Program-made: the position numbers and the translations under genes
Source of the DNA: Lingula anatina
Taxonomy: Eukaryota > Animalia > Brachiopoda
Direction: 5' to 3'
DNA: 64,000 nucleotides
NCBI GenBank assembly: GCA_051362555.1
Contig: CM120644.1
Span: forward strand, 6,084,954 to 6,148,953
In this document: in pieces, positions 823-41,122 of the stretch
How positions within the stretch are numbered: position 1 is the stretch's first letter
Layout of the letters: each line of letters begins with the position of its first letter
The notes under the pieces: model-generated
Databases searched by the model: none
What the model was told of the DNA's origin: nothing
Seen by the model: the letters and a program-made list of their open reading frames with translations, nothing else

Positions 823-3800
823 CTATGAGAGCAATAGCTTTATTTTACAATAAAAATGGGATTTGTCTACCTTTTCCATGTAGTGCAATTATTTGGCATA
901 GTGCAATTATCAATTCTGAAGATTTTTCCATTAAGTACTGTACAATTTTTCAGACAGTATGTTTATTTTGGAAGATTTTTCCACACACTACAATTATTTA
1001 GGACTTCAGATGTAGCATTAAGCCTTTTTTTCATTGATTTTAATCATATAAAAAATATTGAAATACAATGAATTTTCTTTAAATAATTCACGGCACACAT
1101 TTTTAAAAAATAGCACACTTTTTTTGACCAAGTGGGCCAAAATGGCCCGACCAGATTTTGACCCAGGACAATCCCTGCTAACAGACAAGCATTTTTCCAA
1201 GAGTGAAAATCTAAAAAACGTTACAAAAGTTGGAAGCTCCACTTCACTATGACTTATGTTTTAATTTAAGTCAAAAATTGGAATAAAATTTACAAAGGAT
1301 ACATGATCTTGTGTTAAAAGATTAGAAATTAAGATAGGCAACCCAGATGTAAAAAGGATAAAACTTAAATGCCAGAAAGCAACCAAAATGAAAGACGTTT
1401 AAACTTAAACCTTTAAACATCCTATTACATCTGGCCTGAAAATTAAAAAGCAACGATTTAAAATGCCAGACAATAATATTCATCAAAAATGAAGTGAAAA
1501 TATACAGCTTGATTATTTTGTTGTGGGCCGGTAAAAAAAGGTGTGGGCTGACAAAATTTAATTTGCTCCAGCCCACATGTCTGGTAAGTTTTCAATCTCT
1601 TTCGCAATCACTGTATGTCTGACTCCAGATTTTGACATATCCAAGAATATTGCTGTTTGAGAAATCCGTTTCAATACGACATCTTTATTTTTAACTATGG
1701 CTATGTAAAACATTGGCTTTTAAATGTATACTGACAGTCAATAAAATCATAGCATTTATTTATCAAATAATATTTTAAGTTCCTTTGGCACATTAAGAAA
1801 ATGACAGTTTTCATGTGAAATATGACACATTATTCAGTCACACATTTCACTCTTTTATGACCAAAAGAGAGTTGAAATCGATTCTCATTAAAAAAAGGAC
1901 AAGAAAGTTTTCTGATGCACTTTCACTGTCTGTCACCATATATTAAAGAATAATCCATAGTATAACATGAACAAGAGCTGAGAAAAAAATCGAGTATGCA
2001 GGCAAGAAAAAGTTACCATTATAATAAACTATGCAGGCAAGGAAAAGTTACCATTATTAGAAACAGGTTGAAATACTATTGTGATTAAGTTCAACCCAAT
2101 ATTGCATTTACACTTTAAAATAAATTAATTGCACCAATAGTATTCTATGGGTCAGATGTATGAGGCTTCAAACTGTGTGAACAGGTGCTGATATTATTTA
2201 AGGAAAATTTAAGGTGTAAAATCAAGCACTTCCAAATTAGCTATCTTAGGTGATGGCATCAGATAACCCATGGTTTGCAGCTAAGAGTAGAAAAAAAATT
2301 AATAATAATAATAATAAATAAATAAAATTTAAAAAATAATAAAATAAAAAAAATGAAATAAACAGAGGAGAAAATAACAAACTATAAAATGCTTTTAAAG
2401 ATAGATGAGGCATGATGTATTACATGGAAAACAAGTAAAAACATTTTTATATAGTTTTGAAAGTGCGTGGTATAATTAAGGCACAGGAAATAATTTATTT
2501 TTTGGATTTCTTGAACATTAGACTGAAATATTACCATGTTCAAGAGTGTATTAAACAATTGCAAAATATCTCTAAACTGAAATCATTGTATTTTCTAAAT
2601 GTTTCAGCTGAAGATGCTTTATGTATTTATATCTGATTTCTCTAAATTAAACTGTTCTTATCATATACTGATGATTGATCAAAGTAGACAAGAAAACATT
2701 CCATAGAAATATAAAAATTTTATATGCAGGTCAAGAGTAAAATTCATTTGCTATTATTGTTATTATGTATGCAGTAACAGCTGTTATTGCTACTATAACT
2801 GATACATATTTGGAACTTTGTAATTTTGATAAAAGCCTTGAAATACTGAAATAAATATATTCTTTAACAATGTACCTTTTGAAGTTTCCTTTTGCATATT
2901 TATAGCTGCTGTATGTCAACAAAATGCTGGATGCAGCTTTTCCAGGGATTGCTCCACTAATTGTGAGATTTCAGTCACCTGAAGTAGTAAATTTACAAAA
3001 GCACTGTCAACAAATTATTTTTGTATTTGTATCATGTTTCATTATTAATGTAAATGCATAATATCTAACGAAAAGGAATGTACTGTACCAATTTCCATGT
3101 AACTATAAAATGTTTCATCATATAAAAATGTTCTCAAACAAAAAAAAAATATTCAGAAAGATGGTTATTTTTATTTATTGCAACATACTAGGGTGGTGCT
3201 ACTGGTTGCGTGGTGCTCTGTACGGCGAGTTGCAGCATACTGAATCTCTCTTCAAAATCATCCTATAAACAGAAAATTTACTTAAAATTTTGGAAAAAAT
3301 AACTTACAACAATTACAAAATTTTAATGATAATGAATGTGAGTAGGATTTAACTTAATGAGGTGATTTAATATCGGTAGAAAAAATTATTGGGTCGCCTT
3401 TTCCTTGGCAGGAAAATTGCTAGCAGCCTTGTATTTAGTTGTAAACAAAAGCATTAAATAGCAAATTCCCTAGTTAAGGGACAGAATTTTATTCCGACTT
3501 TTTTCAAGTATGATGTGCAGTCAAACTACAGTTCACGGCTAGTACGGACTAATATTCCGTTGCTGTACAGATATATCATTACTTGATCACGACAGGGAAA
3601 GTAAAACTCTGCCGGCTGTCCACGTGCTTTGTGTGAGATCGCTCGATTATCGTCGATTTTATCCACATGCTGCAATCCAGCTTCGTTTAATCAAGCTAAG
3701 AGACAGACTTACCTCCAATAATGTCAACTTCGAGGCCATTATTAATCAAATTGAACCAAAAATCTGTCAAAATGACGCTCAATTGTCTTAGCACGCCTGC

Positions 3801-4216
3801 TCCCCATTCACATGTAGTGCAACAGAAGTTGACCGGAAGTAAAACTACCCAACTCTCGCCCAACTCTCGTGGTCACAAGCTCATAACACAGAGGGCAATA
3901 CAAATCTCGCGGGAGTTGGCATTCCATTTTCTCTACTTCTATGTAAAAACGAACAAGAATATTCTTCATACCGAGAATCACACAAGGGCATTATCATACA
4001 GGGTTCTGGGGTCACTATTGATCTGTTTTGTCAATCTGGAACATTGTCCCTATATGTGGAAGACAAGTTATTGTACAAAATCTCTTTAATGGTGACCTAT
4101 TATAATGTCTTTTATGTGTGTCTGTTGTTCTTTGGTCGTGTTATTATCCATAACTGCACTGAGGTTTATCATCTTTTGTTTTTGAGCCACCATTTAAGGG
4201 ACGTACCCACTACCAA

Positions 4217-5413
4217 GTGTCTCAAGGCCACACATTGTTTTTGCACCAGTTATTCGCATACATACAAGAGATAAATAGTTACAAGTTGCTGACACCTTAT
4301 GTTCCTCCCGCAGTCCACACACTCAGACCAGCTTCTATGTCATGGTCTGAGGGGATTCGAAAAATCCTTTTCACATTTGGCCTTGGAGATGTGTGGCTTA
4401 GCCAATCACCTCCAAAAAACTTCACCACAATTTTCAAACAAAGACAAACTGACCACTTTACCCAAATATGCAATAGCAAACTTCAAGCCAGCAGTAAATT
4501 GTCTCTCTTCCGTATACTTAACCAAAAGTGTGAAAGGGCAACTTATGTTGATAAAATAACAAATTATGACACCTTGTCAACCCTTGCTAAACTACGTCTT
4601 AGTGACCATAAACTCCACATCGAAACTGGGCGGCACACCAGGCCAAAAACTGAAAGGTGCGACAGAATCTGTCGCCTGTGCACCCAAGGGGTAATTGAAG
4701 ATGAATACCTTTTTATATTCCAATGCCCAATGTACAAAGCAGACCGAGTCACCTTTTTTAGTAAAACCTCAATCCTAAAAGCTGATATAAGGTCACCAGA
4801 CAGTCAATTATGCCATGTATTTAACAGTGCCAACAAAGATACTTTAGTGTCCCTCTCCAACTTTATAATCAAATCATTCAAGAAAAGAAGTGAATTGGTT
4901 GCTCTGCTTGGTAACTCTTAGCATATCCCTTAAAATGTCAGTGTATGGTCCCACTGTTGTGAGAAGTGACTCGGCAGTGGGACTGAACATGGCACAATAT
5001 TTATATCTGTGTAACTTATTTACTTATCTGTCTTATGTAATTGTCATTAATAGTAATTATCTATGCCATCAAACTGGCCTTAAACAGCCATGTAAACAGC
5101 TATGTAACTGTGGTTTTAAGTTTAAACATATCACATATCCTTTTGTGTAACATGTTTATAGTATGTTTATGGTAAATTTATAATCACACCAAGGTTTATC
5201 TCATTGCTTAGATAGAATATTTTATGAGTAATTTTACTAGTACGTATGTTCATTATATAAAGATTATTTTTTCCTTCACAAATGGTTAGGCAACATAATA
5301 CCAACTAGAGAAATGGTAATGCACTAACTGTATTGTATCGTCATTAGTATATCATATTGTACAATGTCATGACAATCTATGTACCAGTACAGAAATAAAT
5401 TGAATTGAATTGA
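4217..5413 (+). mobile_element. 5'-truncated non-LTR retrotransposon (RTE-X-like C-terminus, 3' UTR and tail)
   Basis: ORF motifs LAKLRLSDHKLHIETGRH and RICRLC..IEDE..FQCPMY; ends in AATAAA followed by a (TTGAA)n tail at about 5395-5413. Confidence 0.8.
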
Positions 5414-6498
5414 AATAAAATATATTCTGTTTTTCCACAAAAACGGCAGTTATAGCTATTATTATGATATCTGGCCTCCATTGATGGCTATGCTCTGTTA
5501 TAATCTCTTAAGAGATTTTAACAAAAAAAAAAAACAAACTTTTTAGAAAAAGACCAGGGGCTAACTTTGAATGTAAAAATGGATTCATTAACTATTGGTA
5601 AGTATGGGAAAATTGTTGTATACTCCAGGAAAATTCATTTTTGGCCAAAATGAAGAGTTATTATCCCTTTAAACAATCAACATAAATAAGACCAACCTCG
5701 TACACTGCCTTACACCTCGACGTCTTACGTGCTCAGTTATAGATAATACATGGGATAATACAGGTAGATAATACATTGACAATGCGCGATATTGACGTCT
5801 TTCCATCGGAAACCGAGTGTCTAACATGTGATTTAAATATGGCGGTCGCTGCAAAAAAAAAAGGAGGAAGTGACAAGTCTTACAATTGCAGAACCGGCTG
5901 CTGGAAAGGGCTGACAATGGAGACAAATGCCATTTAACTACCACTAAAATGCGCACGTAGTGGGTTGAAAACGCTCGAGCCATTTCCGAAAAACGCCGAG
6001 CGTAAAACTGAACACAAAACGAAAAAAGAACAAACAAAAATGCGCCATTAAAATTTCGTTTTGGTGAGTGACGTAAACCTCACAAGTTGAGCTTGATGGA
6101 CATTTTTATGGAACAACTGCGAATATAATTACTGCTGTCATTTTATTTTTGTCTTAGACCATGAATCTGTCAATGGAATCCATTGCACATCCGGCCCTCT
6201 GCGTTGAATACAAGTGCACAAAATTATTCAGCGGTCCTGGTAAAGGGTAGGTAGGGGTGGTGTAGTTACATAACCCTAGACATTGGAAATGGGCGTATGC
6301 TCACATGGGTCTATAATTTAATTCTGTCCACGTCAGTGATCAGGTTTTCCGCGGCAAAACATCAAGAAGCGGTTCTTTGCATCTCGTGAGAAACTGTAAT
6401 ATATATAATTATAACACGGAACAACTGCAAATATGATTTCTGCTGCTCATTTTATTTTTGTTTGAGACTGATTAACATTATTCCATTCACTATGGGGC

Positions 6499-9400
6499 CT
6501 ATCTTCCCAACAAGTCGCTGATCTTCCCCGACAGGTCCACCTGTAAATTAATGTATGTTTACACTAATATGACAATGTAGAGTTATAGGCGAACATGATG
6601 GTTTTAATTACACGTCTGATGATACTGGTATGACAATGCCGAGTTAAAGATGAGCACTAACGCATTATGGATAAAATCTCCTCACAACGGTTGCATTGTT
6701 CATAACAAATCTTTACTTATAATATACTGAGGGATCAGGGTTTCTTTTTACGGACATTGTTGAAGCCTAGGTTACATTTGCCATGCAATGGCAGTGCGTT
6801 GCACGTATAGCGTCCGGTAATCCCTTTTCGTTTGGCGTCTGTGTGGAGGGGGGCGGTGACCGTGCGATCTCGTTCCCAGCGGGCAAATCAACATTGAATC
6901 AATGTTGAATCAACGTTGATGGTCAACGTTGAAACTATGTTGATATGACGTTGACTATGAAAGTTGACTCAACGTTGAACCATCAAGGTTGAATCAACCT
7001 TGAGGTATCAATGTTGAATCAACGTTGACGGTCAACGTTGAAACTATGTTGATATTACGTTGACTATGAAAGTTGACTCAACGTTGAACTATCAAGGTTG
7101 AATCAACCTTGAGGTATCAATGTTGAATCAACGTTGACGGTCAACGTTGAAACTATGTTGATATTACGTTGACTATGAAAGTTGAATCAACATTGAACCA
7201 TCAAGGTTGAATCAACCTTGAGGTATCAATGTTGAATCAACGTTGACGGTCAATGTTGAAACTATGTTGATATAACGTTGACTATGAAAGTTGAATCAAT
7301 GTTGAACCATCAAGGTTGAATCAACTTTGAGGTATCAATGTTGAATCAACGTTGACAGTCAACATTGAAACTATGTTGATATGATGTTGACTATGAAAGT
7401 TGAATCAACGTTGAACCATCAAGGTTGAATCAACCTTGAGGTATCAATGTTGAATCAACATTGATACCTCAATGTTGAATCAATGTTGAAATAAAGCTGA
7501 ATTTGAAAATTGAATTAACATTGACATATCAATTAGGCTATCAGGATATTTGATTGAAATTTGCCTGATGGCTGAAGGTGTTCTCCAAGATATCAAGCAT
7601 TTCTTGAAATAAAAAGACTCAGATCTGAAAAGGGGGGGGATTAGGAAAATTACCTACAAAAAAAGGTAATTTCGGAAGAAAAGGGGGGGTCCAGACCCCG
7701 GGACCGGCCCCTGTATCCACCTATTGGTCGTCCAATTTTTTTTAAACTTTCCAGTTTGATGCTCAGTGTTACGGACCAAAACAGCCCGAACAAAAAAAAA
7801 ACACAAACAACAACTAATTTAACTATGAATATAATATACTACAAACAATGAACATACACTACATACACTAACTACATGTAATACTATCATGTTGCATAAA
7901 CTTTAACATTTGTCAAATACAGTTAAATTCTAACAGATTCGTAGACAGTTAAGTTTTGAAGACGCAATGTCACAGTTTTACGAGTCCTTTTCTGTTGAAC
8001 GTTCCTCCTGATAGTGTGGGGTTTTGAAGACGCAATGTCACCGTTTTCCATGTCCTTATCTGTTGAACGATCCTCCTGATAGTGTGGCCTCACAAAGTAC
8101 TGTTAATAAAGTACAGTTTTTGTACTGTAAAAGTGTTGCACACTGTCCACACTCACGTGTTGCATCAGTTCATGTTATCCGGAGTCTCGCACTTAATAAC
8201 AGTCCCGCACTTCATTTACATTATACAAGTATGCAGGCACATACGGTAATTACTCATAAAAATTAAACAACAAATTAGCTTTACTAAAATAATTATAACG
8301 TCACATCAGGTAGTTAAAATTTTAAGAATACTAAAACAAAGGGTCACCAGTTCTCACAGCTAACTTAAATTTCCAGAAAAACAGGCATTTTTGGCTTTTT
8401 CAAGCTTTTTCTTCAACCTTGAGTAAAATTTTGTCAATTTGCCATAAAGTAAGGCTGGTGACCCTTATGTTTTTTTCTTTTTCTTAAAGATAACCTGAAC
8501 ATCAAATCTGGAAAGTTTTAAAAAAAACTGACGACCGCTTTTTTCACAAAATTAATTTTAATGAAAAAGGGGTAAAACAAGCGTTTTTTATGTCTCCTCC
8601 ATCCCAGTGCATCACAAAGTTGCATATTCCCGTTCATAGCAAAAGAGAATGCAACAAAAACTATCGGGTGTTCGTGATTTGGCCAAACAAGGCCGCTTTT
8701 ATTAAATAAACTCACTATCCTAATAATTTTAACAATAATAACAATGTGGCAAATTGTTGCCTGCATTAAATGTTATGGCCTTAGGGATAAAAATTAAATA
8801 TAAAATATGCCTAATAGTCGGCAGATGTACTACGTACAGTGTACATGTACAGCTACTCCCTGCTTGAACTTGTACATAATCTTTCGCTGATATAATATGC
8901 TGTAAACGTGTTGTAACGGTTCGAAATATCGATGAACTGCTGGAAAGGTCTCATCGAAGGAAAAGCCGATGAAATTTTCTGAACTGAAGGTTTAAGTTGA
9001 AAGTCGGAGATAACTTGTAGCTTCAACGTATCGTGCGCGACAACAGAATGAGCGCAAAATGGGTCAGGCAGTGACGTCCCCTGGTATAAGTAGCAACATG
9101 TGCCTCAATTGGGACCACCCCTCCAGGTAGAATTGAGCATGTGCAGAATGCGCATGTGCGTAAATAAGCTCTGGAGATTGTTATCGCCATAAAATATCGT
9201 TTGACTACGCCAAACTTTCCTATGAGGGGTAATTACAACTATGCATACCTCTCTAGTGAGATAATCATTTAAAACTATTATCCAGGTTATGATTAAGGTT
9301 AAAAGTTAAGGTTGACCCAATGTTGAGATCCAATTGATATGTCAACATTGACAAAGGGTTTACAAACACAGGTTGATTCAATGTTGAAATCCTGTTGATC

Positions 9401-12334
9401 TATGAACATTGAAAACTGATTGACAAAGAAAGGTAAAATCAATGTTGAGACCCTGTTGATCTATCAACATTGACAATTGGTTGACAAGAAAAGGTTGATT
9501 CAATGTTGAAATCCTGTTGATCTATCAACATTGAAAATTGATTGACAAAGAAAGGTTAAATCAATGTTGAGACCCTGTTGATCTATCAACATTGACAATT
9601 GTTTGACAAGAAAAGGTTGATTCAATGTTGAGATCTTGTTGATCTATCAATATTGATGGATCAACATCATCTCAACCTATCCTCAATGTTGAATCAACGT
9701 TGAGTGCCCGCTGGGTTCAAGGTATTGCGGTTTCACGGCTCCCTAAATCTTTTGACAAAGTTTTTAAGTGCCATATCCATAAACCGATGCAATATCGTAG
9801 GTGACATTGAACAGTTCAAATACGGGCATTACTCGGTGGACTTGAAGTGATGGTTATGATTGCTTAACCCGTTGTTGGTATCATTCGCTACCTCTTTGGT
9901 GGTTTTATAAGGCATGGCAATAGCGAAAATGATAAAATCTGAGTATATTTCACTTGTATGAATTTGAGGTCCTGCGTTCCCTTATTCTGACCACTTTGAT
10001 GTCAAAAACACGGAGGCGGGGGGGGGGGGGGGGGGGGGGGGGTAACCGACCTTATCAGTCTTCAAGGAAGTTGCACGGAGGGAGTTCGGCATCTACACTA
10101 GGTGCCTTGGCAAATGTCATCTAGGCTTTAGCCGATCTCGATTGCAAATTAAGATTTTTACAGGTTATTATGTTTAAGTGTTAAAACATCTCACATGTCA
10201 GTGTAAAACCTCATAACGTTATCTCATTGAAATGCAGTGTGTTTCAGATATAAAATAGGGTTCTTACCACATTTGGATTGATTGTCTGGAATGTTTCCAA
10301 GTGTGTTCAATAGAAATGCAAACATATAAGTTAGAAGGAAAAAGATTAAATAATAATCATTTGATCATGTAAAACCGACTGTCACCAAGCCATGAATAAT
10401 TATGTTAAATGCTTACATTTATAGTTAAGGACTAGCACATTAAAAAGAGTATCTCCTGTGGTCTTATTAAAAAAGAGAGAAATCATTTATTGCAACTTAA
10501 CCATTATGCTTCTTATTTGAAAATATAGTTTCTTACCGGAATCGGATCAAGACAAAGAATCTGGAATGTTTTTGAAATAAAATTAATGTTTGGTGAAAAA
10601 CAAATATTCTTGTTTGCCCTAAATGTGCATGCATATTCATTATAACTTAACACATTGATTTACAAAAATCACAATCAAAAATGTTTGTATTATGATCTAA
10701 AAAACAAAACAAATATGGTTAAACCTATTTGATCTAGGAATATGTTATTAGTTACGTTAAACCTTAAACAAATAGACTAGTTTCACCATTACACGGCATA
10801 TATGCACATGCCCACAGTTGTAAAAATTAAAAAATAAAATATATACATATATATATATATATTTTTCAAACTTACCGGATATAGTAAACATTCAAGCTGA
10901 AGGGGAAAAGGCCACGTTGTATATATATATATATAACTTTTAATTTTTGTGGTTTCATTGCATCTATATTGAACTATTTTCTCTTACAAATTTGTACTAG
11001 TAAAAAAAATTGAGGATAAAATAAGTGTCAACCATTTGAAATATCATATGAGTATCATAATAATAATTACAAATATTGACAATTATAATTTCTCTTTATG
11101 TAAACTCCTTAGCCAATCCCGAGTGCAAATCTATTTTTTACAGATAAGAATGATTCAGAGTTTAAGCCCCTGACACTTCAGTAAAATACCTAAAATATCA
11201 TCTCTTTGAAATGCAATTTGTTTCAGTTACGAAAATACGCGTTCTTACCTTATTTGGCCATGGCTTGGTTGTCTGAAATGTTCCAAGTGTTTTGGATACA
11301 TATAGTAATTCATACGTTTAAGTTAGAAGACAAAAAGATTTTACTAAAAATTTCTTTAATCATGTAAACCGAATATCATCAAACTATCATAAAAATGTGC
11401 ACATTTAGATACAAGTTCTAAAGGCCAACTTCATTTAATATCCCAGTGTTATCCCGTGCGAATTAACATAAAGAAAATCATACTCCGGCCTGTTATTTAT
11501 TGCAATAGTTATCAGTATACCTCTTATTCTGAAATATAGCTTCTTACCGGCAGTGGCCAATCACATGGAATCTGGAATGTTTTTCATTTAAAATCAATGC
11601 TTTGGAGAAAACAAATATTCTTTTTTACCCTAAATGTACATACAGATTGGCAAAAATCATAATAAAAAAGCTCAAAATGAATATGGTTAAAATCATTTGA
11701 TCTAGGAATATGTTATCAGTAATGAAAATAAGGTCTGAGTAAGAATCAAAACGAATATGGTTAAGAGTATTTGATCTGGGAATATATTATCGATTTATTT
11801 TTATCAATAATGTTAAACCCGAACAACAGACTTTAGTTTTCACCACTATACGGTATATGCACATGCCCTCAGTAAGGGTTTTCTATTCGGCTGTATCATA
11901 TTGCAAAAGCAGAGAAGAGCATCTATTTAAAAAAAAACTTACCCATGGGTATCTTGAACATGGAAGCTGAAAAGGGGAAAAGGCGAAGTTATATTTATTT
12001 ATATATTTGATGTTTTTTCTTGCTGCGGTGTTATTTTCTTCGATAGATTTATTCTGTCAATAAAACTTGAGGAACACGTGCTAAAGCTTTAAAACATCTT
12101 ATGAATATAGATATAGAAATAAAAAAAAGATTACTGCTATTTAAATCAATTCCTTTGCCGCTTTCGAGTGCAAATGTAGTTTTTTATAGATGACTTTGTT
12201 TCAGTGTTCGAGCACCTGTATAGCACCTCAAATGTTATCCCTCTGAAAAGCAGTTTGCTTCAGATATGAAAATATAGGTTCTTACCTCATTTGGGACGAT
12301 TGTCTGGATTATTAAAGTTTCCGTGTGTTTTGAA

Positions 12335-12365
<31 letters not shown>

Positions 12366-12957
12366 TTAGAACAAAAAAGGTTAAAGTAATTATTTGATCA
12401 TTTAAACCGATTCTCAACAAGCCATATAAATATGTTAAATCCACGCATTTATAGTAAACGGTTAGTACATTCTAAAAACAAACGTGCTACAAAAATTTTA
12501 AAAAGAGAGAAATTGTTTGTTGCAAATTTATCATTCTGCTTCGGATTAGAAAATATAGTTTCTTACCGAAAATGGAATACAGGACCCCTGGAATGTTTTA
12601 AAAATGAAGTTAATTCGTTGGGGAAAAGAAAATATTCTTCTTTACCTCGAATGTACATACATATACATTATAAGTTTTCAGGCAGATTGACAAAATGTTT
12701 TATTAAAAAAGAATGATGGTCTCATAAGCAAAACGAATATGGTTAGACTATTTGATCGAGGGATATGTCAAAAGTAACGTTAAGCCTTAAGCAAACAGAT
12801 AATAGTTTTAACCAATAAACTTTATTTATACTTGTCCTCAATAAGGCTTTTCTTACCATGCATGACTCGGTTATCCTTTATTGCAAAAATAGTGAAGGGA
12901 ATCTATTATTTCTTAAACTTACCCCTAAGCATGGCGACGGCTGAAGGAAAAAGGCAA

Positions 12958-13035
<78 letters not shown>

Positions 13036-15607
13036 GAAGAAAAACGATTAAAAAACAATCATATGATTATGCAAACCGATTATCGCCAAGTCACAATTAA
13101 AAACTTTGTTAAATGCATACATTTATAGTAAACAATTAGTAAACACTTTAAAAATGAATGAATAAAAAAAACAATATGTATGCCGACCAATAATACACAA
13201 AAAACATAGGGAGCATTCAGATAGACACATCGTGTTTGTTGGATCGGTCCAATTCTGTGGGGCTCTCACTAACTGCAATCGACTACACTAAATGACACGT
13301 CTCCTTGGGTAGTTAAGGAGCAACTAATTTTCTTGTCAGCTCTGCTGAACTACCCTCCAGCTGCTCTTGGGAGGCGTGTCAGACAATAAACCTAATTCTA
13401 CTGATTGCACTTAGCGAAAATCCCCGCATGGTTACACCTATCCGATGACGTGACAGACCCTACGCTGTGTCTCTCTGAATGGGGTCACATAGTTCCTTAC
13501 ATCTACAGGTAGGATAGCCCGTTCGTCAGTGCCGCGAAGTACGGAAAGGAGGCGGGAACCTGAAATCAAATAATTGTAGAAAACTATTACTATTTTACAA
13601 CAAATATATGTGATGTAGATGTCAGTGTTTCGATGAACAAGTATTCAACTCTCACAATATGTTGAAAATATCGGCCATGGTTACTATTATAAAAAAAATA
13701 ATAACTACAGTATTTATTTGTTTCTTGACGAGAATAGAAGAGTCTCGTTAATGATAGTTACTCAAGAGTCTAAGCAATAAATAAATAGATCGAAAATTAA
13801 AACAGTAACCAACAACTTATCTTGCAAACTCAAACAAACTGTTACTGTTTTCGAACCCAAACATTTACAGAAATCATATACATCACATAAATTACATGTA
13901 TTTGAGTTTCAGCAGTGTATTTCACACACGCTTTTCACAAGCGTAATTATGTTCACACGTCTTCTACGTTGACACCCTTTCCAATTTTTTATAAAATGAA
14001 TTTCTTTTCATTGTTTTAGATTGTATTTGCGGTGCAATTTTAGCTGGGGACGTAACTCTCAAGAGCTGATTGCCACTATACCATAGTGAACATACGTTAT
14101 TAACGTAAGGTTGTGAATATAAAATATAAAATTGTGAATGCCATGTTGTTAAATGCATACAATGTAGGATTGCAAAGTCATTCCAAGTGCATGGATCGCT
14201 TATTGTTGAACTTATCTGAGGACAATAATAACTTTTAAAACATAAAATTATAGACAAATGGCCTCGCCTTCGCCGCCACCTTTCTAACATCGGTAGCCAG
14301 CCATCTTGACACAGTTTGTAAAAAGAGCGAATCACGGCACGAGGGTCCTGCGATATCTGGAAGTCGAGTTAATGGAATAAATGGTGTATCTGGATAACCT
14401 CCACTTATGCGCAGGTTTTGATCTTTGGCCTTTTACCAAAAGTGTGTCAGAGTCAAGTGATTTCTAGACCAGCAAACACGACACGTTCGGATCACGTGGC
14501 TAACACGTTGCTACCACATTATAACGTCATAGCAACGTGCCAGCCACGTGATCCGAACGTGACGTACTTGCTGTTCAGGAACGGATATTAAATGTTGGTA
14601 AATCTTGAGGAAAATGCCGTTTACCCCGGGATAATTCGTTTAGTATGGTTTTTGGCTCAAGAAATTCTCCTTTATGCACCATTAACTGTGAAATGCTTCT
14701 ATTCATACTCTAAAACAAAATTCAAAGGAAAGGTGCACATGGTATGTCGTGAGGCCTGGCTTAGAGATGCGCTTATCTGCAAAGTAAAGCGGGTAGGATA
14801 GGCCTTAAAGTCATGTCGGTATAGCCTTCTGGTATCAGCCTAACCTCTGATAACAGGTCAATTTTCAGATTTGCAATTCTCATCGACGTTTATGGCAGTT
14901 TTTTAAGAGAATAGCCGGAGGGGATGGACAAAAAATATACAGAACGATAAAACATAACATTATATGAAGTGTGTAGTTGCATGATATAAAAAAAAAGAAA
15001 TTGTTCCCTAACAATTTTGCCCCTTATTTTCTGGCACTTTTCTGGCGTTTATATAATCATGGATTAGTTATTTATTCATTTCCAGGATTATATAAACGTG
15101 GCAAAATAATACATAGTCAGACATCGCAATTGTAGTAATCAAAACTGCTTAATTCCCCAAAACTGTAAATAATGAAATTCAAACAAAGTTTTTTTGCGCA
15201 AGAATTCAAAATTATAATACAACGGAACTGGAAACTTTGTGCTTTTTGAAAGATTGAACAAAATGGTCGTCACCACAACGATTTAAGTAAGGGAAGGATG
15301 TTTTTATTTTCTTTTCCTATTATTTGCATACTATGACTATTTAACTTTCTTACCTCAGAATTTCTTGTTAAAACCAACCATATTAAGTCCAAACATTTTT
15401 TCAAATCCAAAACGAAAGCAAAACAGTACAGATTTAAAAAAAATCACAAAGGGTCAATTAAGCACATATGTTAGCATACTGCCTTGGTTACTTTTTACTT
15501 ACTTCTGGTAAAGGAAAAAAAAGAAAAAACTCACCGCGTGTTTCCTTGGCCCCGTTCGCTATGTCACAAACAAAGCACACAACGACGCACAGCAAGAACG
15601 CTCTCAT
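6499..15607 (-). CDS. Micro-exon gene A: secreted Cys/Pro-rich prepropeptide, 12 exons, 121 aa
   Basis: Exons (all GT-AG): 15607-15535 MRAFLLCVVVCFVCDIANGAKETR; 13559-13501 GSRLLSVLRGTDERAILPVD; 12940-12923 PSPCLG; 12587-12567 GSCIPFS; 12303-12286 TIVPNE; 11966-11943 LPCSRYPW; 11571-11548 IPCDWPLP; 11272-11249 TTKPWPNK; 10896-10876 LECLLYP; 10560-10537 ILCLDPIP; 10285-10268 TINPNV; 6540-6499 VDLSGKISDLLGR*. Phases join without a stop; hydrophobic N-terminus; AATAAA on the minus strand at 6451-6456. The last exon is the least certain (3.7 kb intron). Confidence 0.8.
6890..7490. repeat. Five tandem 109-bp units (left subterminal array)
   Basis: GAAACTATGT recurs at 6931, 7040, 7149, 7258 and 7367. 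Confidence 0.92.
9370..9660. repeat. About 61-bp tandem units (right subterminal array)
   Basis: GTTGATCTAT recurs five times at roughly 60-61 bp spacing. Confidence 0.85.
10180..12960. repeat. Three diverged tandem units of about 1 kb, each carrying three micro-exons of gene A
   Basis: Shared landmarks AATATAG(T/C)TTCTTACC (10522, 11533, 12552 approx.), AATATGGTTA..ATTTGATC, and CTGAAG/AAAAGGC repeat at about 1 kb period. Confidence 0.88.
12962..13032. repeat. (TA)n(TG)n microsatellite
   Basis: Direct reading. Confidence 0.95.
14469..14573. mobile_element. Small hairpin MITE in intron 1 of gene A
   Basis: CACGTTCGGATCACGTGGCT...AGCCACGTGATCCGAACGTG inverted repeat with CCAGCA-like ends. 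Confidence 0.7.
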
Positions 15608-16050
15608 CCTGCTGCAGGCTCTTCCTCAAAAGTATGAACGTCAGAACTGCAACGAGCACCTGGGAGCCCAGAGTTGATTTAAATAGTCACATAAAATACA
15701 TGCCCACGCAATATAAACGGGAAGACCGACCCCTCGTCACACGTACGTGTACGTGCCATTATGCAGGTTTGCCCGAAAACTGGTTTAAAGGAACTTAAAC
15801 ATCTGGGCGCGTTTATCTAAGGAGATGCGACAATGCAGAGCAATAATAACGTAAAAAACCATACTGTGTTGCACACTGGAAAAGTTCTGATAGCTATACA
15901 GCTATATGATAAGCAAAATAGAAAACTGAGCCACGAAAAATACGAGTATTTTATTAGTAGACGGAAATACAAAAGGTGATCTTATAAGTTTTAGACCCTT
16001 TGTAATGAATAAGGTACCATCTCTACACCTTCGTGTAATATTTCATCTTA

Positions 16051-17640: not shown

Positions 17641-17713
17641 GGTTCAATAGTGTAGTGACCATCACGCTCGTCTCACACGCGAGAGGTCCTGGGTTCGAAC
17701 CCCAGTTGAACCA
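17641..17713 (+). tRNA. tRNA-Val(CAC) or tRNA-Val-derived copy
   Basis: Acceptor stem GGTTCAA/TTGAACC, anticodon arm CTCGT-CTCACAC-GCGAG, T arm CTGGG-TTCGAAC-CCCAG, T-run terminator just downstream; D-loop lacks the invariant GG. Confidence 0.75.
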
Positions 17714-18959: not shown

Positions 18960-21900
18960 CTAAACCAGTGCCTTTTCGCACACATAGCCCCCCACGTTGC
19001 CATTGCAGCTGTAATCATCAAACTCGTAGTCAACAAAATCCCGCCTTCCAATCCAGAGGACCATGCAAGGACCGTTCCCGTCAGGCTGATAGTCTCCGGG
19101 CACGCCCGCCGCCTTCGTCCAGCCATCATAAGCCACTTGTTGCCCTGTAGGTACCCAGAAAAACTGGAGCTTGCGGGCCTCCCTAGAGTTCACTGGCGCC
19201 CCAGTGCGTGTAGTGACGGGGTTAATCGAAAGACGCCGACCCCCCACGTACCATCCAATGAACCTGTTTGGTGGGGTGATGGCTGGAATGAAATTAAAGT
19301 ATTTATTTAGAAGAATGGATTTTATCCAGGGTGAATTTTTGAAAGGTTTAATAACAAAATAAGTTACACCCAAATGCCGATATAAAATCAAATTTAAAAA
19401 AAGATCACATCTGATACATTGACAAATTCATGGTTTTGCTAAATTGGGAAGCAATGTTCAAAATTATTTTCTGTGGCTTTCCACGTTCAAAACTGTAGGC
19501 GCAGACCTGGGTAATTTTACTATTTAGGACCCTGTTTTGGGAAATGCCTTAAGCAGGCAACACAAAACAGGGATGCGTGCCCGCTGTGACCCCCAGATCG
19601 GCCATTGCCCAGGGCTCCGTATCTCGAAAGGTTCGCTATGTTGCTCACGTGCGCAAGCGTCCCGATTCCATAACCGATTCTATTTCGAGATACGGGGCCA
19701 TGGAATCGAGACACTTTAGCACGTGCGCAAGCGTCTCGATTCCATGGCCCCGTATCTCGAAATAGAATCGGTTATGGAATGGAGACACTTGCGCACATGC
19801 GCAACATTGCGAACCTTTCGAGATACGGAGCCCAAATCCATTATACCCCGTTCACACTACGCTCAGTTATCCGGATAAATTGCGAATTAGGTCACAATTC
19901 GAATAAATGCAGTAGTGTGAACGCAAGAGGATTTTTGTAATGCGCATTTTCAAAATCCTGCAAGCGAGGTGGATTTCTAAGCGCGATCCGGATAACTTAC
20001 CGGAATCGACACCTTTACAGATCTTACTGCGCATGTGTGCAGATAAGTGCGGATATCTATAAACGCTTGTTTATTACTTTAGCGATTGCACCAAACGTAT
20101 TTGGAGGTCACCACTCACTACAACATGAGGAAACAAACTTATTTTGCCACCTTGTACTTCTCAAGAATGCTGGAATGTCTTTTGAGTTGCATTTGTCGTC
20201 ACAAATTTTTGTTGGTATTTTAAGATTTCCTGTGCGGCGCATGCGCGAGTGTTCAAAACAGGAAGTTAAACCTGAAATTTTCAACATGGGATTCGGATTC
20301 GCTTAGCGAGTGTGAACGCAATACCGAATCGGATTCCTTATGAAAAATCCGAATTATAGAAATGCGCATTTTGGCAACTGTAGTGTGAATGGGGTATTAG
20401 TTACATAAGTTAATGATGAAATGAAGACAAAAAATTTATTCGCATTTTAGTTTCGGAACGAGCTCTTATTGTTTTGAGAATTTTGTTCTTTGTCGAGGAG
20501 AGGAGTTTGCCAGTCATATACAGTAAAAATATTTATTTACTTACGTCTTAGGTTAGTCTTGATAAACTCGTGCTCTTCGCTGGTCTCTATGGAAACGAGG
20601 TCAGCGGACGCATTTTGGCAAATTGCCCTGGACAACGCCCAAGATGGCGACCTCCCGGACACGGTAATAAACGAATAACAGGAGTTACCGAAAACACCAA
20701 ACCCAGGTGGGCAACCTAAGCAAGAAAACGATAAGTGGATTCTAGCATAAGTGTTTCATTTTGGAACAAAACGTACATCTCCAGTCTTAATTATCAGTCA
20801 AAATATATCTGTAATAAATGTATGCTTAAACCATTTCGTGGAAATATTTTTGTTTGGCAAATACTAACTTCGTCCTCTACGGGTATCATAAAAGATCCCA
20901 TCGTAATGGTATACAGCAATAAATAGATGAAAAAAACACCTTGTAAAATGTCACGATGTCCGTTAGAAGCCTCTATAGTTTGGCAAAATTCCAATATGAG
21001 GCAAGAAACATTGTTAAGACACAAAATGCACTTTCGACCATTAGAGCAGAATTTTTGGAACTTCATACTTTTCTCTTTATCGCCAAGGTTTACAGCATCC
21101 AAAACCGTTGAATAAATCGCCATCTAGAATCCCATATCGCGGTCTAAATGCCCATTTTTATAGGCACGATTTAAGTTAACCAGTAAATATCTTAATTTCA
21201 CCAGATGCAGGCTTTCATTTGGTATAGATGTGTGAAAATAGATACTCACAAGATTGAGAATTGGTGCAGGATCGGGTCTGGGTCCCCGCCCCCTGGCATC
21301 CGGGCCCATTATTACACTGTCTTTCTCTTGTGGCAACCCCTGTCCCGCAAGTCTTTGAGCAGGCACTCCAATCCCCCCACGGGCCCCAAAACGGCCTGGG
21401 TCTGCAGTCAGCTGGGTTCCATACGCGCAGGACGCACGGGTTTGAGGAGTCCGGATACGCGGCGGATTCTCCGTACTTTTCTGGCACCTTTGTGCCGGGT
21501 GCGCATGCGTGGAACGTGGGTCGAAGATAACTGGTGCCGTGATATTCACATTGGTAGAATGCGCACGCGTTGCTGTCGTCACGGAGATACTGGTTGCTGA
21601 TGCGGTTTGGGTCGCATTGTCCGACTGAAATAAAGATTCCCCACTGTCAAAATTGAGGCAAGTTTTTGTGCATTAAAATAACAAATTAGCTTTCAGCTAT
21701 TTTCAAAATATATATTCCCTTTTCTTTTGGAAACCATAGCTAAAAGTCTACAAACATAAACGAATCTGGAAGTTGGCTCTTTTTATATTCCGAATACTAT
21801 ATACGGATTGAGTACTTAATTATGAATGTGAGAGACAGGGAGAGAGAGAGAATGAGAGAGATGAAACGTCGAAGAAAAACTTTGAAATACAAAAAAAAAA

Positions 21901-21999
21901 AAAAAAAAAATTCAAAGAGACAGAGAGAGTCTTACCTGGATCAGACAAAATACGACAAAATAGGCCAATCAATACGGTAAATGCGAAGATCGCTGTCAT
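18960..21999 (-). CDS. Secreted multidomain lectin: signal peptide + chitin-binding type-2-like Cys domain + TSP1 + C-type lectin (QPD), 4 exons, about 310 aa
   Basis: Exons 21999-21936 ([21 protein letters not shown]), 21624-21250 ([22 protein letters not shown], then [25 protein letters not shown]), 20715-20545 ([34 protein letters not shown]), 19282-18960 ([24 protein letters not shown]). All introns phase 1 GT-AG, frame open. Confidence 0.88.
19612..19833. mobile_element. Palindromic MITE in lectin intron 3
   Basis: GGGCTCCGTATCTCGAAAGGTTCGC...GCGAACCTTTCGAGATACGGAGCCC, near-complete fold-back. Confidence 0.85.
19844..20396. mobile_element. PIF/Harbinger-type MITE in lectin intron 3
   Basis: TIR TACCCCGTTCACACTAC / GTAGTGTGAATGGGGTA with TTA TSD. 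Confidence 0.8.
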
Positions 22000-22039
22000 C
22001 TCAACGGTGCAATCGAATACAGATATTCTCTCAACGTTC

Positions 22040-23934: not shown

Positions 23935-24425
23935 ATGAATATCAAAATAACTTGGATTTTCATCATTTTGCTGGTTTATGCATCAGCGGTGTTTGTTGGG
24001 AGCAATGTGATCCGTGAACGGAAACCTTCAACTTGTGAGTGCAATTTTTTTAAAGAATAAGTAACAAATACCCCTGTTTCAATATACAAGTGATAAGCTC
24101 TTACTTCAGGTGGGCTTTATTGATAATCCATCAAACTGAGCTGGGCAGTTAGCCTTATAAACATTATTTTTGTTATAAATATTTGATCCAAAAACTATAG
24201 TCTCGCGGGGAGATTTCATTTGGTTTTGACGGCTTAATAAATGGAAAAAACTGATCACCGTGTTACTGTATGTTATTGAAACCCCAATGAGTCACACTGT
24301 AGACGTTAGCAGGGAAATTCTGTCTGATCCAAGATTGCCGGTTGCATATTTATATATATACATAAAATAATAAACGAGGTCAACCTTATCACACACACTC
24401 ACACACATACACACACACACACACT

Positions 24426-24456
<31 letters not shown>

Positions 24457-25754
24457 TAGGAATGTATAAGACTGAGAAATGGACAACCCCCAAACTAAAG
24501 AGGCACGTGAACCACTGTGACCCCCATTTGGTCATTGTGGACATATCCAAATATTGGCTGCTGAAATCTCAGATAACACTCGAACCAAATGTCTAATTTC
24601 AGTGCTCACCCTTGGGCAAAAGCAATGGAAGATTCGATTTATGCATTTATTCCAGCTTCGAAATAAACGCGAGGTAAGCGATTTTTCGTTTTTGTTGTTT
24701 ACGTTTATACATACGTATGTTTGCTTGTGTCAATGTACATTCTTTTATCATTTAAAAATCCATTACAAATATCCCGGTAGCAATTATTGAATTAAATCGC
24801 ATTAAGGTTATTGTTTCGTCTTTTCAAAATAAGAATACCATTTTAATTTGAAATAACTGCCACCCAATTACGATTGTAACAGGTTGGCAATTGAAGGTTG
24901 TTTTCCTTTTTCAGACGAGTCCAAATCTATGGACGTTCCCCCCAAAGGTAAGTACACCTTAGCTCATTTGAAAGAAGCGCCTTATAAGACAATGTTTGGA
25001 CAACAATGTGATAACTTCCTCCGCCAAAAAGTTGTACTTTGTCAGTTTGTCCGTAAGCAACGTTATGCATTATCATAAGAGTAGCAATCCCAACAGTTGG
25101 TGAGTTGGATTCCAACCTGAAACCTTTGTGAGAAACTTCAAAACAGAAGCTCGTACATAACAATGGACTTAGAAACAGTCACTAATAGGAAGTCCATCGG
25201 AACCTGAAAATTGTTTAAGTACGTGGAAATTGGATTTAGAAAAATAAGTAAATTTTAGTCCTTTGCATGATGATTTTATGGCATGAGAGGGCATGTAGAG
25301 TGGGTTAAATGTATGAAAGGATTTCTGATAACTTTATTTATTCATTTTGTATTGATTTATTTTTATTTATCAGTATTCAATTCAATTCATTTCTGTACTG
25401 GTGCATGATTAATCATGACCTTTTGCAATATAATATAATAACAGCAAGACAATTGGTGCATTACCATTCTCTTTATTCACCTTCTTTGCATTCACCTTCT
25501 ATTCTTTGCAGATCACAATTCGAACTTTTCCACCGATTCCAAAGGTACAATGTAGGTTGTAGACGTTGTGGAAGATGCTTAAAGCCAATGTGGTTCTATA
25601 ACATCATGATACATGGCGATAAAAAATCTTAAATCAAAGTATAAAATATAGAATGCCATACTGTACGTCACAGAATGGTTGATCAGTTTCCCATTTATAT
25701 TTCCAGGTGACCATAAAGCCATGGACCATACGTTCTATAGTAAGTTGTGCTGTG

Positions 25755-25800
<46 letters not shown>

Positions 25801-28293
25801 TTGTTGTTGGTGGTGGTGGTGGTGGTGGTGGTGGTGTTTTTTTTTTTCCTTTTTTGATTCAATAATTTGATGAGGTAAAATCCTCGAGTCCTTGCAACCA
25901 TTCGTATGTGAACTGGTAAAAACGTGCAGAACACCGGTAGCTTTCGCATGTAGATCCATATGCTGAGCATTCCATGCATTTATAATCACACAAGAGCATT
26001 TAAGTTATGTAACATTTGTGAAATGGACAACATTTTTTATTTATTTCAGAAACCCATAAAACCCTGGACGGTGCCACCAAAAGTAAGTTATACCGCAAAA
26101 AAAGTCGCACGTTAAACGACCACTCGTACCTTGTGATTCAGTTTGTCATTTTGATAAACACTTTTGTACAGTCACATATATTGTCATCTTTAAATTTTCA
26201 GTTGTAGTTTGCAGAAACAAAATCGTCATTCATCACTGTTTTTTAAGTGGAGCTATTGTCGTGTACGTTTCGCAAAACTTTTCGCATTTTAAGAGCTTAA
26301 TTTCTTTCTTACCATTAGGTGACCTTTACTTTTCCACCTGAGGTAAGACATTATACATATAAAAGTATGTACACTAATAATATATCATATATTTCTTGAA
26401 AAAAAACGTAACGATACTTATTTATTATTAACAATAATGAATACTGGTTGCTGATGTCCCGAATATGAATAGATGAATGTTCTATATTATATATAACAGT
26501 ATACGATTGCTCACGATGTGACAAAGGTATATTGCCCTTAATACATGTATGTTACAACGTACAGTGTATATGAACGTGTATCAAAATTAGCTATCACGTT
26601 CAATATGTCTGTATGTATGTTCAGTGCATGCAGGAATATTGCCCAGTTTACTTGCATGCACTTTTGTTTCCATCTAATTATAGCATAAATAAATGAACTG
26701 CATATAAGATATATGAATAGGACTCTTTGCAACATGAGAGGGGGTGGATGTCTTTGGTAAACCGCCGGATGAGAGTGACTAGGGCAGAAGAAATTATCGC
26801 AAGGACTGGCGCAATTTGTGTTTTCTTATAGCCAATACTTATCCTTTACAACTCTAATGGACAAGAAAGATTAAGATGGTTAATAACATCAGGACACGTG
26901 GTAATAAAAAACTCTTACATGAAGTATAAAATACAGAATACCAAACGGTCACAGAACGGTTGATGAAACATGGTGATGGACCAGTTTCCTATTTATGTTT
27001 CTAGGTGACCATCAAGCCATGGACCATTCGTTCCATTGTGAGTTTTTTTTAAATATATATCTGATAATTCCGTGTGTGTGTGTTTGTGTCTGATTTAACT
27101 GGATAACTTTTGTTGGGTTACCACATTCTTATAAGAACATAATCAGTTAGATACTTGGTGCATATATTAATTCAGATATGTATCTTAACTCAATACAACC
27201 ATATTTTAATTAACTATAGAAAACATTGTGCTATTGGCTTGTACTATTACTATTTTTCTTGTCGTTGTTGTTTGTTGATGTTGTTTTGGTTCTTGTTCCT
27301 ACTGCTGTTGATTTCTACTCCTTTTCCGTTTTCTCAATAAATTAATGAGGCAAAAAACATTCCTCCTCGCTTGTGTATGCGAACATTCTTGTGTATGGAC
27401 TGGTAAAATCATGCAGAGTATGCATCGATAGCTTTCACATTTAAGTCTATATGCTTGGCATTCCATCCAGTTAATCACACATGGAAGTTTAAGAAATGTA
27501 ATTTTTGTGAAATGGACAACATTTCTTTATTTCAGAAACCTATTAAACCCTGGACGGTGCCACCAAAAGTAAGTCATACAGCAAAGAAAAACACACTTTA
27601 AACGAGCACTCGTTTCCAGTGATTCAATTTGATTCAATTTTTGGTAAACCGTTTTTTTTCAGTCACACATCTTATCATGTTTAAATTTGTATAAAGTTGT
27701 AGTTGTATAAACAAAATCGCAATTCATCAGTCTGGCATTTTAAAAACTTAATTTCTCTTTTACCATTAGGTGACCTTTACATTTCCACCTAAGGTAAGAC
27801 ATTATACATATAAATGTCTGTACACTAGCTGATATATTTCATGACAAAAAAAAACGTACCGATACTTATATATTTTTAACAATAATGAATACTGTTGCCG
27901 TGACAGGTGCCTTTAGAGACAGTCTATTATATTTGTGTCTTTATATTTGTGAACAATGGACACATTTGTATACTTTGTACATAAAACTACGCAGAAGTGG
28001 AGAAGCACCAGAAGTGTCGTTTATTTACTTTTGATAGTTTACTTCTAGAGAACAATCGGACTGCTTCCAACTGTAAGTAAATTCATCTTAAAAGAATACA
28101 TTTGGACCAGATTGTTTCAAATTCATATACTTAAACAAATACAATGTAAACGTTGTAATCACACCAATGCTTGTCATATTGAAATTTCAGGTAAATCTAA
28201 TCCAATCTAGATACCGATTCTGTTTGCATTCATTTACTCCCTTCTCTCCCATTGTCTATGAGATAGCTTTTGTAAACCGTTTTATAACGTGTG

Positions 28294-28324
<31 letters not shown>

Positions 28325-28475
28325 AAACAATGCCAATGCAGTGATGAACTGATGCGTGCCAATCCGGTACATTTATCCCATTAACTCATCAAACATTTGA
28401 TTTTCATTATTCTTACAGATCGTTCTGCCAACAGCCGCACCTTTACCAACATTCCCTCCGGATTTGATTGGTTAA
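23935..28475 (+). CDS. Micro-exon gene B: secreted Pro/Thr/Lys/Trp-rich cationic prepropeptide, 11 exons, 154 aa
   Basis: Exons (GT-AG): 23935-24034 MNIKITWIFIILLVYASAVFVGSNVIRERKPST; 24603-24673 LLTLGQKQWKIRFMHLFQLRNKRE; 24915-24947 TSPNLWTFPPK; 25707-25739 VTIKPWTIRSI; 26050-26082 KPIKPWTVPPK; 26319-26342 VTFTFPPE; 27005-27037 VTIKPWTIRSI; 27536-27568 KPIKPWTVPPK; 27770-27793 VTFTFPPK; 28049-28072 RTIGLLPT; 28419-28475 IVLPTAAPLPTFPPDLIG*. Signal peptide, RNKR furin-type site, AATAAA at 28588-28593. The exon-2 acceptor is ambiguous (in-frame alternative at 24573). Confidence 0.82.
25640..27900. repeat. Two tandem units (about 25640-26450 and 26920-27900), each carrying three micro-exons of gene B
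   Basis: Shared AAGTATAAAATA.AGAAT.CCA, TTTGTGAAATGGACAACATTT, GGTAAGACATTATACAT and AACAATAATGAATACTG. Confidence 0.9.
25757..25836. repeat. Compound (AAT)n(TTG)n(GGT)n microsatellite in a gene B intron
   Basis: Direct reading. Confidence 0.95.
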
Positions 28476-36138: not shown

Positions 36139-36323
36139 TAATATAGTGTGCATGTTATCACTGTTGACACGATAGTTTATCTATACATTATACATGGCCA
36201 TTGCCACCTTTTGAGGTCAGTTACCGCGTATCACACTACAAAGGGGACTGGGTGTGCTATATAGCTCACATGTGATTGTTCCACTATTGACTAAAAGACT
36301 TTCCAATGCCATGATGTGACAAT

Positions 36324-40742: not shown

Positions 40743-41122
40743 AAGGGAAAACTATATATTACTTTAACATATGTCCATTGAAACCCTTTCCTGTGGATGG
40801 AATATGCCCGTGTTAACAATTATATTTAAGGCTTATGGTATGTGAAGGACTAAATGGACATGTAGGGCCTACTGTACATGTAAGCTAAATTCATAGGTCC
40901 TTGTTGTAAGCAAAGGTAGAGTCAATGTTTCCGGTTTGAAAATAAGAGTAACTGCAGAACACCAAAACTACTCTTACAAATATGCACGTGGTCCAATGTA
41001 TCATCCTTAGATTCGACACTTTCTATGTAGAATAATAACATTAAGAAGCATAACGTATGCTTTTTTTAATGCCATTGTTCCACTATTGACTGGATGTCTT
41101 TCCAATGCCATGATGTGACAAT

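What the first reader, a model, noticed from the sequence alone, without database searches (positions are those of the whole stretch)
10180..12960. Gene A exons appear to diverge faster than their flanking introns
Seen: intron sequence around homologous exons is readily alignable across the three modules, while exon peptides differ strongly (GSCIPFS / IPCDWPLP / ILCLDPIP; PSPCLG / LPCSRYPW / LECLLYP), length changes are only multiples of 3 and the Cys is kept. Established: exon-focused hypervariability with fixed Cys is typical of positively selected toxin and immune peptides. Inference: diversifying selection on the loops. Splice-signal constraint could inflate flank conservation.
Basis: partly seen in the sequence, partly recalled or inferred. 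Interest (0 to 1): 0.7.

Follow-up and report, generated by a model that had tools for sequence, protein, structure and literature searches.

The report
Brachiopod microexon peptide gene, weakly constrained
A lamp-shell (Lingula) gene with nine tiny predicted in-frame exons likely encodes a secreted peptide with three cysteine-closed loops; those exons have changed about as fast as the surrounding introns, not clearly faster, so selection for variety is possible but not shown.

Summary
The peptides and modules are real. Gene A (minus strand, Lingula) has a signal exon, a pro exon and nine phase-0 microexons of 18-24 nt in three duplicated a-b-c modules. Pooled exon identity is 108/168 = 64% against 68% in deep intron (block-null P 0.25); a neutral sequence of exon composition would give about 66%. 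The a+b exons give 59% (P 0.13), and 52% without Cys and the donor G (P 0.04-0.13). pN is about pS (about 0.35), and the mean omega against the intron rate is about 1. A site-class signal for positive selection is not significant against an intron pseudo-codon null (P 0.10-0.22). The best hint is 4 in-frame length changes against 0.6 expected. Neighbouring Gene B has the same architecture, matches a RefSeq protein exon for exon, and its duplicated microexons are strongly conserved (1 amino-acid change, 91% against 78% in introns). Gene A is therefore unusually unconstrained, but 'faster than introns' is unproven. The more interesting result is a MEG-like microexon gene pair in a brachiopod, with signs that module content varies between copies.

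The parts
15535..15607 (-). Gene A exon 1: ATG, predicted signal peptide (hydrophobic core, A-N-G cleavage pattern, judged by eye), ends phase 1
   Evidence: a related copy in runs X1 and X2 keeps this exon (6 other letters in 102 in X2) while 290 letters of the intron beside it are replaced
13501..13559 (-). Gene A exon 2: predicted pro-region, 59 nt, phase 1 to phase 0
13032..13154 (-). Remnant of a b-c intron, joined through a (TG)n(TA)n tract (12962-13033) to the a1 acceptor; likely trace of a lost upstream module
   Evidence: 77% identical to 10330-10446, E 1e-18; alignment; tracts
12923..12940 (-). microexon a1 (18 nt, PSPCLG)
12567..12587 (-). microexon b1 (21 nt, GSCIPFS)
11943..11966 (-). 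microexon a2 (24 nt, LPCSRYPW)
11548..11571 (-). microexon b2 (24 nt, IPCDWPLP)
   Evidence: (corrects an off-by-one)
10876..10896 (-). microexon a3 (21 nt, LECLLYP)
10537..10560 (-). microexon b3 (24 nt, ILCLDPIP)
6499..6540 (-). Candidate last coding exon of Gene A (phase 0, 13 codons ending Gly-Arg-stop, AATAAA about 40 nt on); unverified
   Evidence: no RNA was laid here
6228..6275 (-). Second candidate last exon (Pro/Thr-rich, 15 codons) in a tandem copy of the same 3' unit; unverified
   Evidence: the two 3' flanks align above 500 of 500 shuffles
23935..28475 (+). Gene B, used as control: signal exon, pro exon, nine phase-0 microexons of 24-33 nt (one d-e-f module duplicated) and a last exon
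   Evidence: 151 of 165 residues identical to Lingula anatina XP_013402169.1 without a gap

Best explanation
Gene A is a Lingula gene of nine predicted phase-0 microexons in three duplicated modules that likely encodes a secreted proline-rich peptide with one predicted Cys-Cys loop per module, and selection likely preserves splice sites, frame and the Cys while most other codons change at about the neutral rate. Shown: exon anatomy, module homology, near-equal exon and intron divergence, strongly conserved donors, in-frame length changes. Inferred: splicing (by analogy with Gene B, whose microexons match a RefSeq protein), secretion and pro-region processing, disulfide loops with 4, 7 and 6 residues between the Cys, and gain or loss of whole modules without frameshift. 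Most likely role (inferred): an extracellular binding peptide of mucus, cuticle or surface defence, in which loop shape matters more than loop sequence.
For: Nine of nine units are CAG..GTAAG, 3n and stop-free; the b/c flank pattern occurs 5 times in the window, all in this gene, with 0 matches in 100 shuffles. Donors: 23 of 24 columns invariant against 56% in deep intron, P 2e-5. Exons 0.643 against a neutral expectation of 0.63-0.66 for their 46% GC. pN about pS; omega 1.0 against intron rate; classic dN/dS 0.79-1.0. Invariant amino-acid columns 6 of 17, against 3.4-4.0 under neutrality, P 0.10-0.20. Gene B shows what constraint looks like at this locus: exons 82/90 against introns 394/504.
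Against: Non-Cys a+b codons are only 47/91 to 51/96 identical (0.52-0.53; P 0.044-0.15 depending on alignment and composition correction). MAFFT underestimates intron identity in simulation, which makes these P values somewhat conservative. Four in-frame length changes against 0.6 expected at the intron rate (P 0.003). The two-class codon model gives LRT 5.0-6.9, which is significant against a parametric neutral null (P 0.01-0.04) and rises to 7.8-11.4 with other hand alignments. No transcript or annotated protein of Gene A was found, and the last exon is not fixed.
Confidence: 0.5

Rival explanations
1. Diversifying selection acts on the residues inside and beside the Cys loops: a minority of codons evolve several times faster than introns while anchors are fixed, giving an average near 1.
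For: The best two-class fit has about 30-35% of codons at omega 7-10. Codon pairs with three differences: 6 of 56 (11%) against 5-6% in intron triplets. Excess of in-frame length changes. Non-Cys a+b identity 0.52. The signal exon is conserved in a related copy while its intron is replaced.
Against: Intron pseudo-codons reach the same LRT in 10% and 22% of 600 draws; 16% of 21-column intron windows are at or below 0.57 identity. Synonymous sites in a+b are as diverged as non-synonymous ones (pS 0.43-0.53 against pN 0.36-0.43, on 9-12 sites). Only 22 codon columns, aligned by hand. Pro-codon repeats could favour 3n slippage (inference).
Confidence: 0.35
2. This copy is a silent or decaying member of a birth-and-death family; the neutral-looking average mixes earlier constraint with later drift.
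For: Repeat insertions in the first two introns (deep multi-copy coverage at 13.2-13.4 and 14.2-14.6 kb); a lost-module remnant; no piece longer than 46 bases at 95% or more, and no near-identical copy, among the listed pieces of 3 of 3 other DNA runs laid; last exon uncertain.
Against: All nine splice-site pairs intact and donors nearly invariant; no frameshift, where about 2 frameshifting indels were expected (P of none 0.12) and no stop (P 0.30-0.35), both weak alone.
Confidence: 0.1
3. Ectopic gene conversion among the tandem modules has homogenised introns and was purged in exons, so the modules are not a clean clock.
For: Intron identity is patchy (21-column windows 0.46-0.84 between the 5th and 95th percentile); a contig of run X15 matches different window modules in different pieces.
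Against: No long near-identical tract between modules; the best module matches are 65-77%.
Confidence: 0.05

Closest known systems
Schistosome micro-exon genes (MEGs; passages of PMC5825161, and PMC4350168)
   Same: Signal peptide followed by short symmetric exons (6-36 bp in MEGs; 18-24 bp here); exon duplication; mature-region dN/dS near 1 (1.10-1.14 for the top three MEGs).
   Different: MEGs are described as about 80% microexon and apparently restricted to flatworms; Gene A is about 52% and lies in a free-living brachiopod. Exon skipping is untested here. No sequence homology is claimed.
Aphid bicycle genes (passages of bioRxiv 10.1101/2020.10.28.359562; abstract of PMC9168663)
   Same: Secreted, many microexons, fixed Cys in a highly divergent background, clustered paralogues.
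   Different: Bicycle genes carry paired CYC motifs, are about 200 aa and have population-level proof of positive selection; Gene A has single Cys per exon and no such proof.
Sponge proline-rich macrocyclic peptide precursors (passages of PMC10945851)
   Same: Signal peptide plus tandem Pro-rich variable cores flanked by similar introns, with AT/AC repeats proposed as recombination sites.
   Different: Those have conserved protease recognition sequences between cores; Gene A's c exons vary and carry no dibasic site, and cyclisation is untested.
Mytilus MgCRP-I / multi-MgCRP-I (passages of PMC4558851)
   Same: Lophotrochozoan pre-pro-peptide with Cys modules and a variable mature region.
   Different: Six Cys per module, all modules in one exon, positive selection shown (P about 1e-8); here two Cys per module on separate microexons.
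Lingula anatina XP_013402169.1, labelled 'adhesive plaque matrix protein'
   Same: It is the counterpart of neighbouring Gene B and has the same exon-phase plan as Gene A.
   Different: No Cys loops and strongly conserved repeats. No DNA homology of A and B was detected (3' flanks P 0.07-0.15). The label is the source's name, not a tested function; no Pfam family hit.

Membership tests
Micro-exon genes (MEG-type) | Short symmetric exons of 6-36 bp | tested here: met
   nine phase-0 exons of 18-24 nt
Micro-exon genes (MEG-type) | About 80% of the coding region in microexons | tested here: not met
   192 of 366 nt = 52% with the candidate last exon; Gene B 54%
Micro-exon genes (MEG-type) | Signal peptide | tested here: inconclusive
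   fits by inspection of exon 1; no predictor was available
Micro-exon genes (MEG-type) | Isoform variation by exon skipping | not testable with these tools
   the two RNA runs laid gave no reads on the modules
Micro-exon genes (MEG-type) | Homology to a schistosome MEG family | not tested
   only unspliced single-exon stretches of Gene A were searched
Positively selected Cys-framework peptides (conotoxin / MgCRP-I type) | Conserved signal exon with variable mature region | tested here: inconclusive
   signal exon conserved in a related copy; that copy's mature exons were not seen
Positively selected Cys-framework peptides (conotoxin / MgCRP-I type) | Fixed Cys | tested here: met
   6 of 6 a/b exons; neutral P 0.03-0.04
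Positively selected Cys-framework peptides (conotoxin / MgCRP-I type) | dN/dS above 1, or exons faster than introns | tested here: inconclusive
   mean omega about 1; site-class P 0.10-0.22 against the intron null
Aphid bicycle genes | Paired CYC motifs | tested here: not met
   single Cys per a/b exon, no CYC
Sponge PRMP precursors | Conserved recognition sequence between cores | tested here: not met
   c exons share T, P, N only and have no dibasic site

The most novel reading that the evidence does not exclude
Brachiopods have independently evolved a MEG-like diversity generator: a cluster of secreted-peptide genes assembled from phase-0 microexon modules, in which Gene A's Cys-closed loops are under diversifying selection and modules are gained, lost, reordered and skipped, giving a variable surface or defence repertoire in a free-living animal.
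Probability: 0.25. Interest if true: 0.68.

Novelty: new variant of a known kind. Interest (0 to 1): 0.42.

Why it matters
Exons that outrun introns are a known mark of toxins and effectors, so even if confirmed that claim alone would be a new example of a known pattern. What adds value is the setting. Microexon-built secreted proteins are described mainly from parasites and plant-feeding insects; two full-text searches (Lingula + microexon, brachiopod + micro-exon) found no paper in the held library, which lacks most subscription journals. The locus also offers a built-in contrast, one gene with conserved repeats and one with free-running repeats at similar intron divergence, which makes the selection question testable with population data.

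Tried and rejected
No whole genome is held for this window, so paralogues could not be collected. No RNA holder was listed. Two RNA runs laid on 9700-15800 (about 6% and 25% of each read) gave almost only repeat-derived reads, next to nothing on exon 1 and none on the modules; reads made of 18-24 nt exons may not be placeable, and the tissue or population may differ, so this says nothing firm about expression. Runs X1 and X2 match the modules with 0 other letters in the listed pieces, so they gave no alleles and may be the source material. Exon-level differences in the X15 contig were only partly listed (40 of 61 rows), so no orthologue dN/dS could be computed. A protein search with exon 1 plus flanks found no candidate among proteins of 80-2000 aa (weak evidence). 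Pfam on exon 1 and the Atlas on exon 2 plus intron read-through (best 0.75) gave nothing usable. The 1.84-billion-protein search never ran (queue full, five tries). A flank pattern had 0 matches in metagenome contigs. A Cys-containing frame at about 9890-9940 was rejected as last exon because that stretch matches several multi-copy contigs. The significance from the gap-tolerant pairwise alignment was discounted after simulation. A-B homology was not detected. No structure was predicted. Earlier scan notes: nothing by place, sequence or the first word search. The original MEG paper (PMC2909574) is not held. No supplementary files were read; Lingula shell-proteome tables could list Gene A or B.

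Full report
Setting. The window is animal DNA of about 36% GC. A TRIM-NHL frame at 36324-38141 has Lingula anatina proteins as its best 41 listed hits, the top one 82% identical, so the organism is a Lingula brachiopod. No whole genome is held.

Anatomy. On the minus strand, exon 1 (15607-15535) starts with ATG and reads as a signal peptide by inspection; exon 2 (13559-13501) takes the frame from phase 1 to phase 0. Nine units follow, each between CAG and GTAAG, each 18, 21 or 24 nt and free of stops. They form three modules of about 1 kb, a-b-c, which align at 65-71%. The c exons (TIVPNE, TTKPWPNK, TINPNV) were missed. The b and c exons share flanks: the pattern CATTYCAG..GTAAGAA occurs 5 times in the window, all in this gene, and 0 times in 100 shuffles, so b and c are likely older duplicates of each other. 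The last exon is not fixed. Two candidates lie at 6540-6499 and 6275-6228, in tandem copies of one 3' unit.

Are these real exons? Donor positions +1..+8 are 70/72 identical between modules, 23 of 24 columns invariant against 56% in deep intron (P 2e-5). All 4 minimal length changes are in frame, against 6 of 27 intron indels (P 0.002). Independent support for the architecture comes from Gene B (plus strand, 23935-28475). I modelled it from splice signals alone; a later search returned L. anatina XP_013402169.1, which matches at 151 of 165 residues without a gap. For Gene A itself there is no transcript or database protein in hand, so its splicing remains inferred.

Do exons diverge faster than introns? 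I dropped 8 nt at each donor and 25 nt at each acceptor and compared about 600 ungapped deep-intron columns with hand-aligned exon codons. A gap-tolerant pairwise aligner gave introns 74-76% and exons 60-68%, with nominal P 0.021, 0.086 and 0.113 for all exons and 0.007, 0.030 and 0.062 for a+b. Three-way MAFFT gave introns 63-72% by pair and exons 63-67%. Pooled: exons 108/168 = 0.643 against 0.684 (block-null P 0.24-0.36 over three alignments); a+b 67/114 = 0.588 (P 0.13-0.22); c 41/54 = 0.759. The exons are 46% GC in an AT-biased background, which alone lowers the neutral expectation to 0.63-0.66. Simulation shows the pairwise aligner inflates intron identity by 3-6 points and MAFFT deflates it by 1-4.5 points, so the truth lies between, near 0.70-0.72 (inference). 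Removing the Cys codons and the donor-side G leaves a+b at 47/91 = 0.52, P 0.044-0.098, or 0.066-0.128 after the composition shift.

Selection. Nei-Gojobori proportions are pN 0.34-0.38 and pS 0.32-0.43; in a+b, pS (0.43-0.53) is no lower than pN (0.36-0.43). A codon model calibrated on the intron tree gives omega 1.0 for all exons and 1.0-1.3 for a+b, with intervals that include 1. A two-class model prefers about a third of codons at omega 7-10 (LRT 5.0-6.9). This passes a parametric neutral null (P 0.010, 0.037) but not a null of intron pseudo-codons that carries real rate patchiness (P 0.097, 0.222); three other hand alignments gave LRT 7.8-11.4 against null 95th percentiles of 9.1 and 18.2. 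Invariant amino-acid columns number 6 of 17, against 3.4-4.0 under neutrality (P 0.10-0.20); both Cys kept has P 0.03-0.04. In-frame length changes are in excess, 4 against 0.6 expected (P 0.003), though total indels (4 against 2.7) are not, intron indels may be undercounted and the test was chosen after looking.

Internal control. Gene B's duplicated d-e-f module has exons 82/90 = 91% identical with one amino-acid change, against 394/504 = 78% in its introns (P 0.002). Gene A's non-synonymous divergence is far higher (Fisher P about 1e-6; the B modules are somewhat younger). So Gene A's exons are clearly released from ordinary purifying selection; whether they are driven is open.

Related copies. 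Runs X1 and X2 hold the modules with 0 other letters in the listed pieces, and both also hold a second exon-1 copy that is nearly identical while 290 letters of the adjoining intron are replaced. Three other DNA runs with the same species label show no near-identical copy among their listed pieces. Run X15 has a 2649-nt contig with five pieces at about 78-90% identity and window-like spacing. In transcript order it reads: a b exon whose listed changes give the b2-type codons, a c donor, an a1-like exon, a b1-like exon, and a c3-like acceptor (my reading of tables 3 and 8, with 21 difference rows and 26 pieces not shown). That order does not exist in the window. In the window, a b-c intron remnant (13032-13154, 77% to 10330-10446) sits directly before a1 across a microsatellite, as expected if a module was deleted. 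Both suggest that module content varies between copies. L. anatina populations are reported as strongly diverged (section 6 of PMC13425148), so absence of near-identical copies may reflect divergence rather than gene loss.

Mechanism. Shown: symmetric microexons, tandem module duplication, conserved splice sites, near-neutral substitution. Inferred: a secreted pre-pro-peptide whose a and b Cys close loops of 4, 7 and 6 residues, spaced by T..PN linkers; because every exon is phase 0, modules can be gained, lost or skipped without frameshift. I give 0.5 to relaxed constraint around fixed anchors, 0.35 to diversifying selection on loop residues, 0.1 to a decaying copy and 0.05 to gene conversion as the main cause.

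Comparison. It works like schistosome MEGs (passages) and aphid bicycle genes (passages; abstract), but fails the 80% microexon criterion and lacks CYC motifs, so it is filed under neither. Sponge PRMP precursors (passages) and mussel MgCRP-I (passages) share parts of the design. Searches for Lingula + microexon and brachiopod + micro-exon returned 0 papers in the held library; other searches were seen as listings only. One unchecked scan note describes a microexon gene in a cartilaginous fish.

Verdict. Observation partly confirmed; the headline is unproven with three modules and 22 codon columns. The locus is a real, apparently undescribed microexon peptide gene pair in a brachiopod. Interest 0.42.

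Noticed in passing
window 23935-28475 (+): Gene B: microexon-built Pro/Thr/Trp/Lys-rich secreted protein with a KR site at the end of the pro exon and a C-terminal Gly; matches XP_013402169.1 at 151 of 165 residues; no Pfam family; Atlas best hits 0.80 or lower (leads only).
   Followed up: yes
window 21215-22000 (-): A third gene between A and B: a signal-peptide-like exon near 21935-22000 (by eye) and an exon with a TSP1 domain (Pfam PF00090, E 5e-10) preceded by a Cys-rich stretch.
   Followed up: partly
window 30270-55000 (+): Tandem cluster of at least four single-exon TRIM-NHL genes: one intact (36315-38144, 609 aa) and others broken by stops, frameshifts or a deletion (about 30270-31100, 41114-42936, 52952-54749).
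   Followed up: partly
window 6050-6640 (-): Tandem duplicated 3' unit with similar non-coding flanks but unlike candidate coding exons; possible alternative last exons of Gene A.
   Followed up: partly
window 17641-17713 (+): tRNA-Val (CAC) gene.
   Followed up: no
window 39959-40348 (-): Frame with a HYR domain (PF02494, E 2e-11).
   Followed up: no
window 6886-7524 and 9308-9656: Tandem arrays of 109-nt and 61/122-nt units rich in TCAACGTTGA-like palindromes, inside the presumed last intron of Gene A.
   Followed up: no
window 4163-4921 (+), 43178-43672 (+), 61887-63386 (-): Frames that look like LINE reverse-transcriptase fragments (by eye; not scanned).
   Followed up: no
window 3713-3763 and about 3190-3266 (-): Two exon-like stretches of a separate gene starting near 3740, downstream of Gene A.
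   Followed up: no
window 14462-14581 and 19612-19833: Long near-perfect hairpins (82% and 92% complementary arms); the first is multi-copy in genomic contigs, likely miniature transposons.
   Followed up: no
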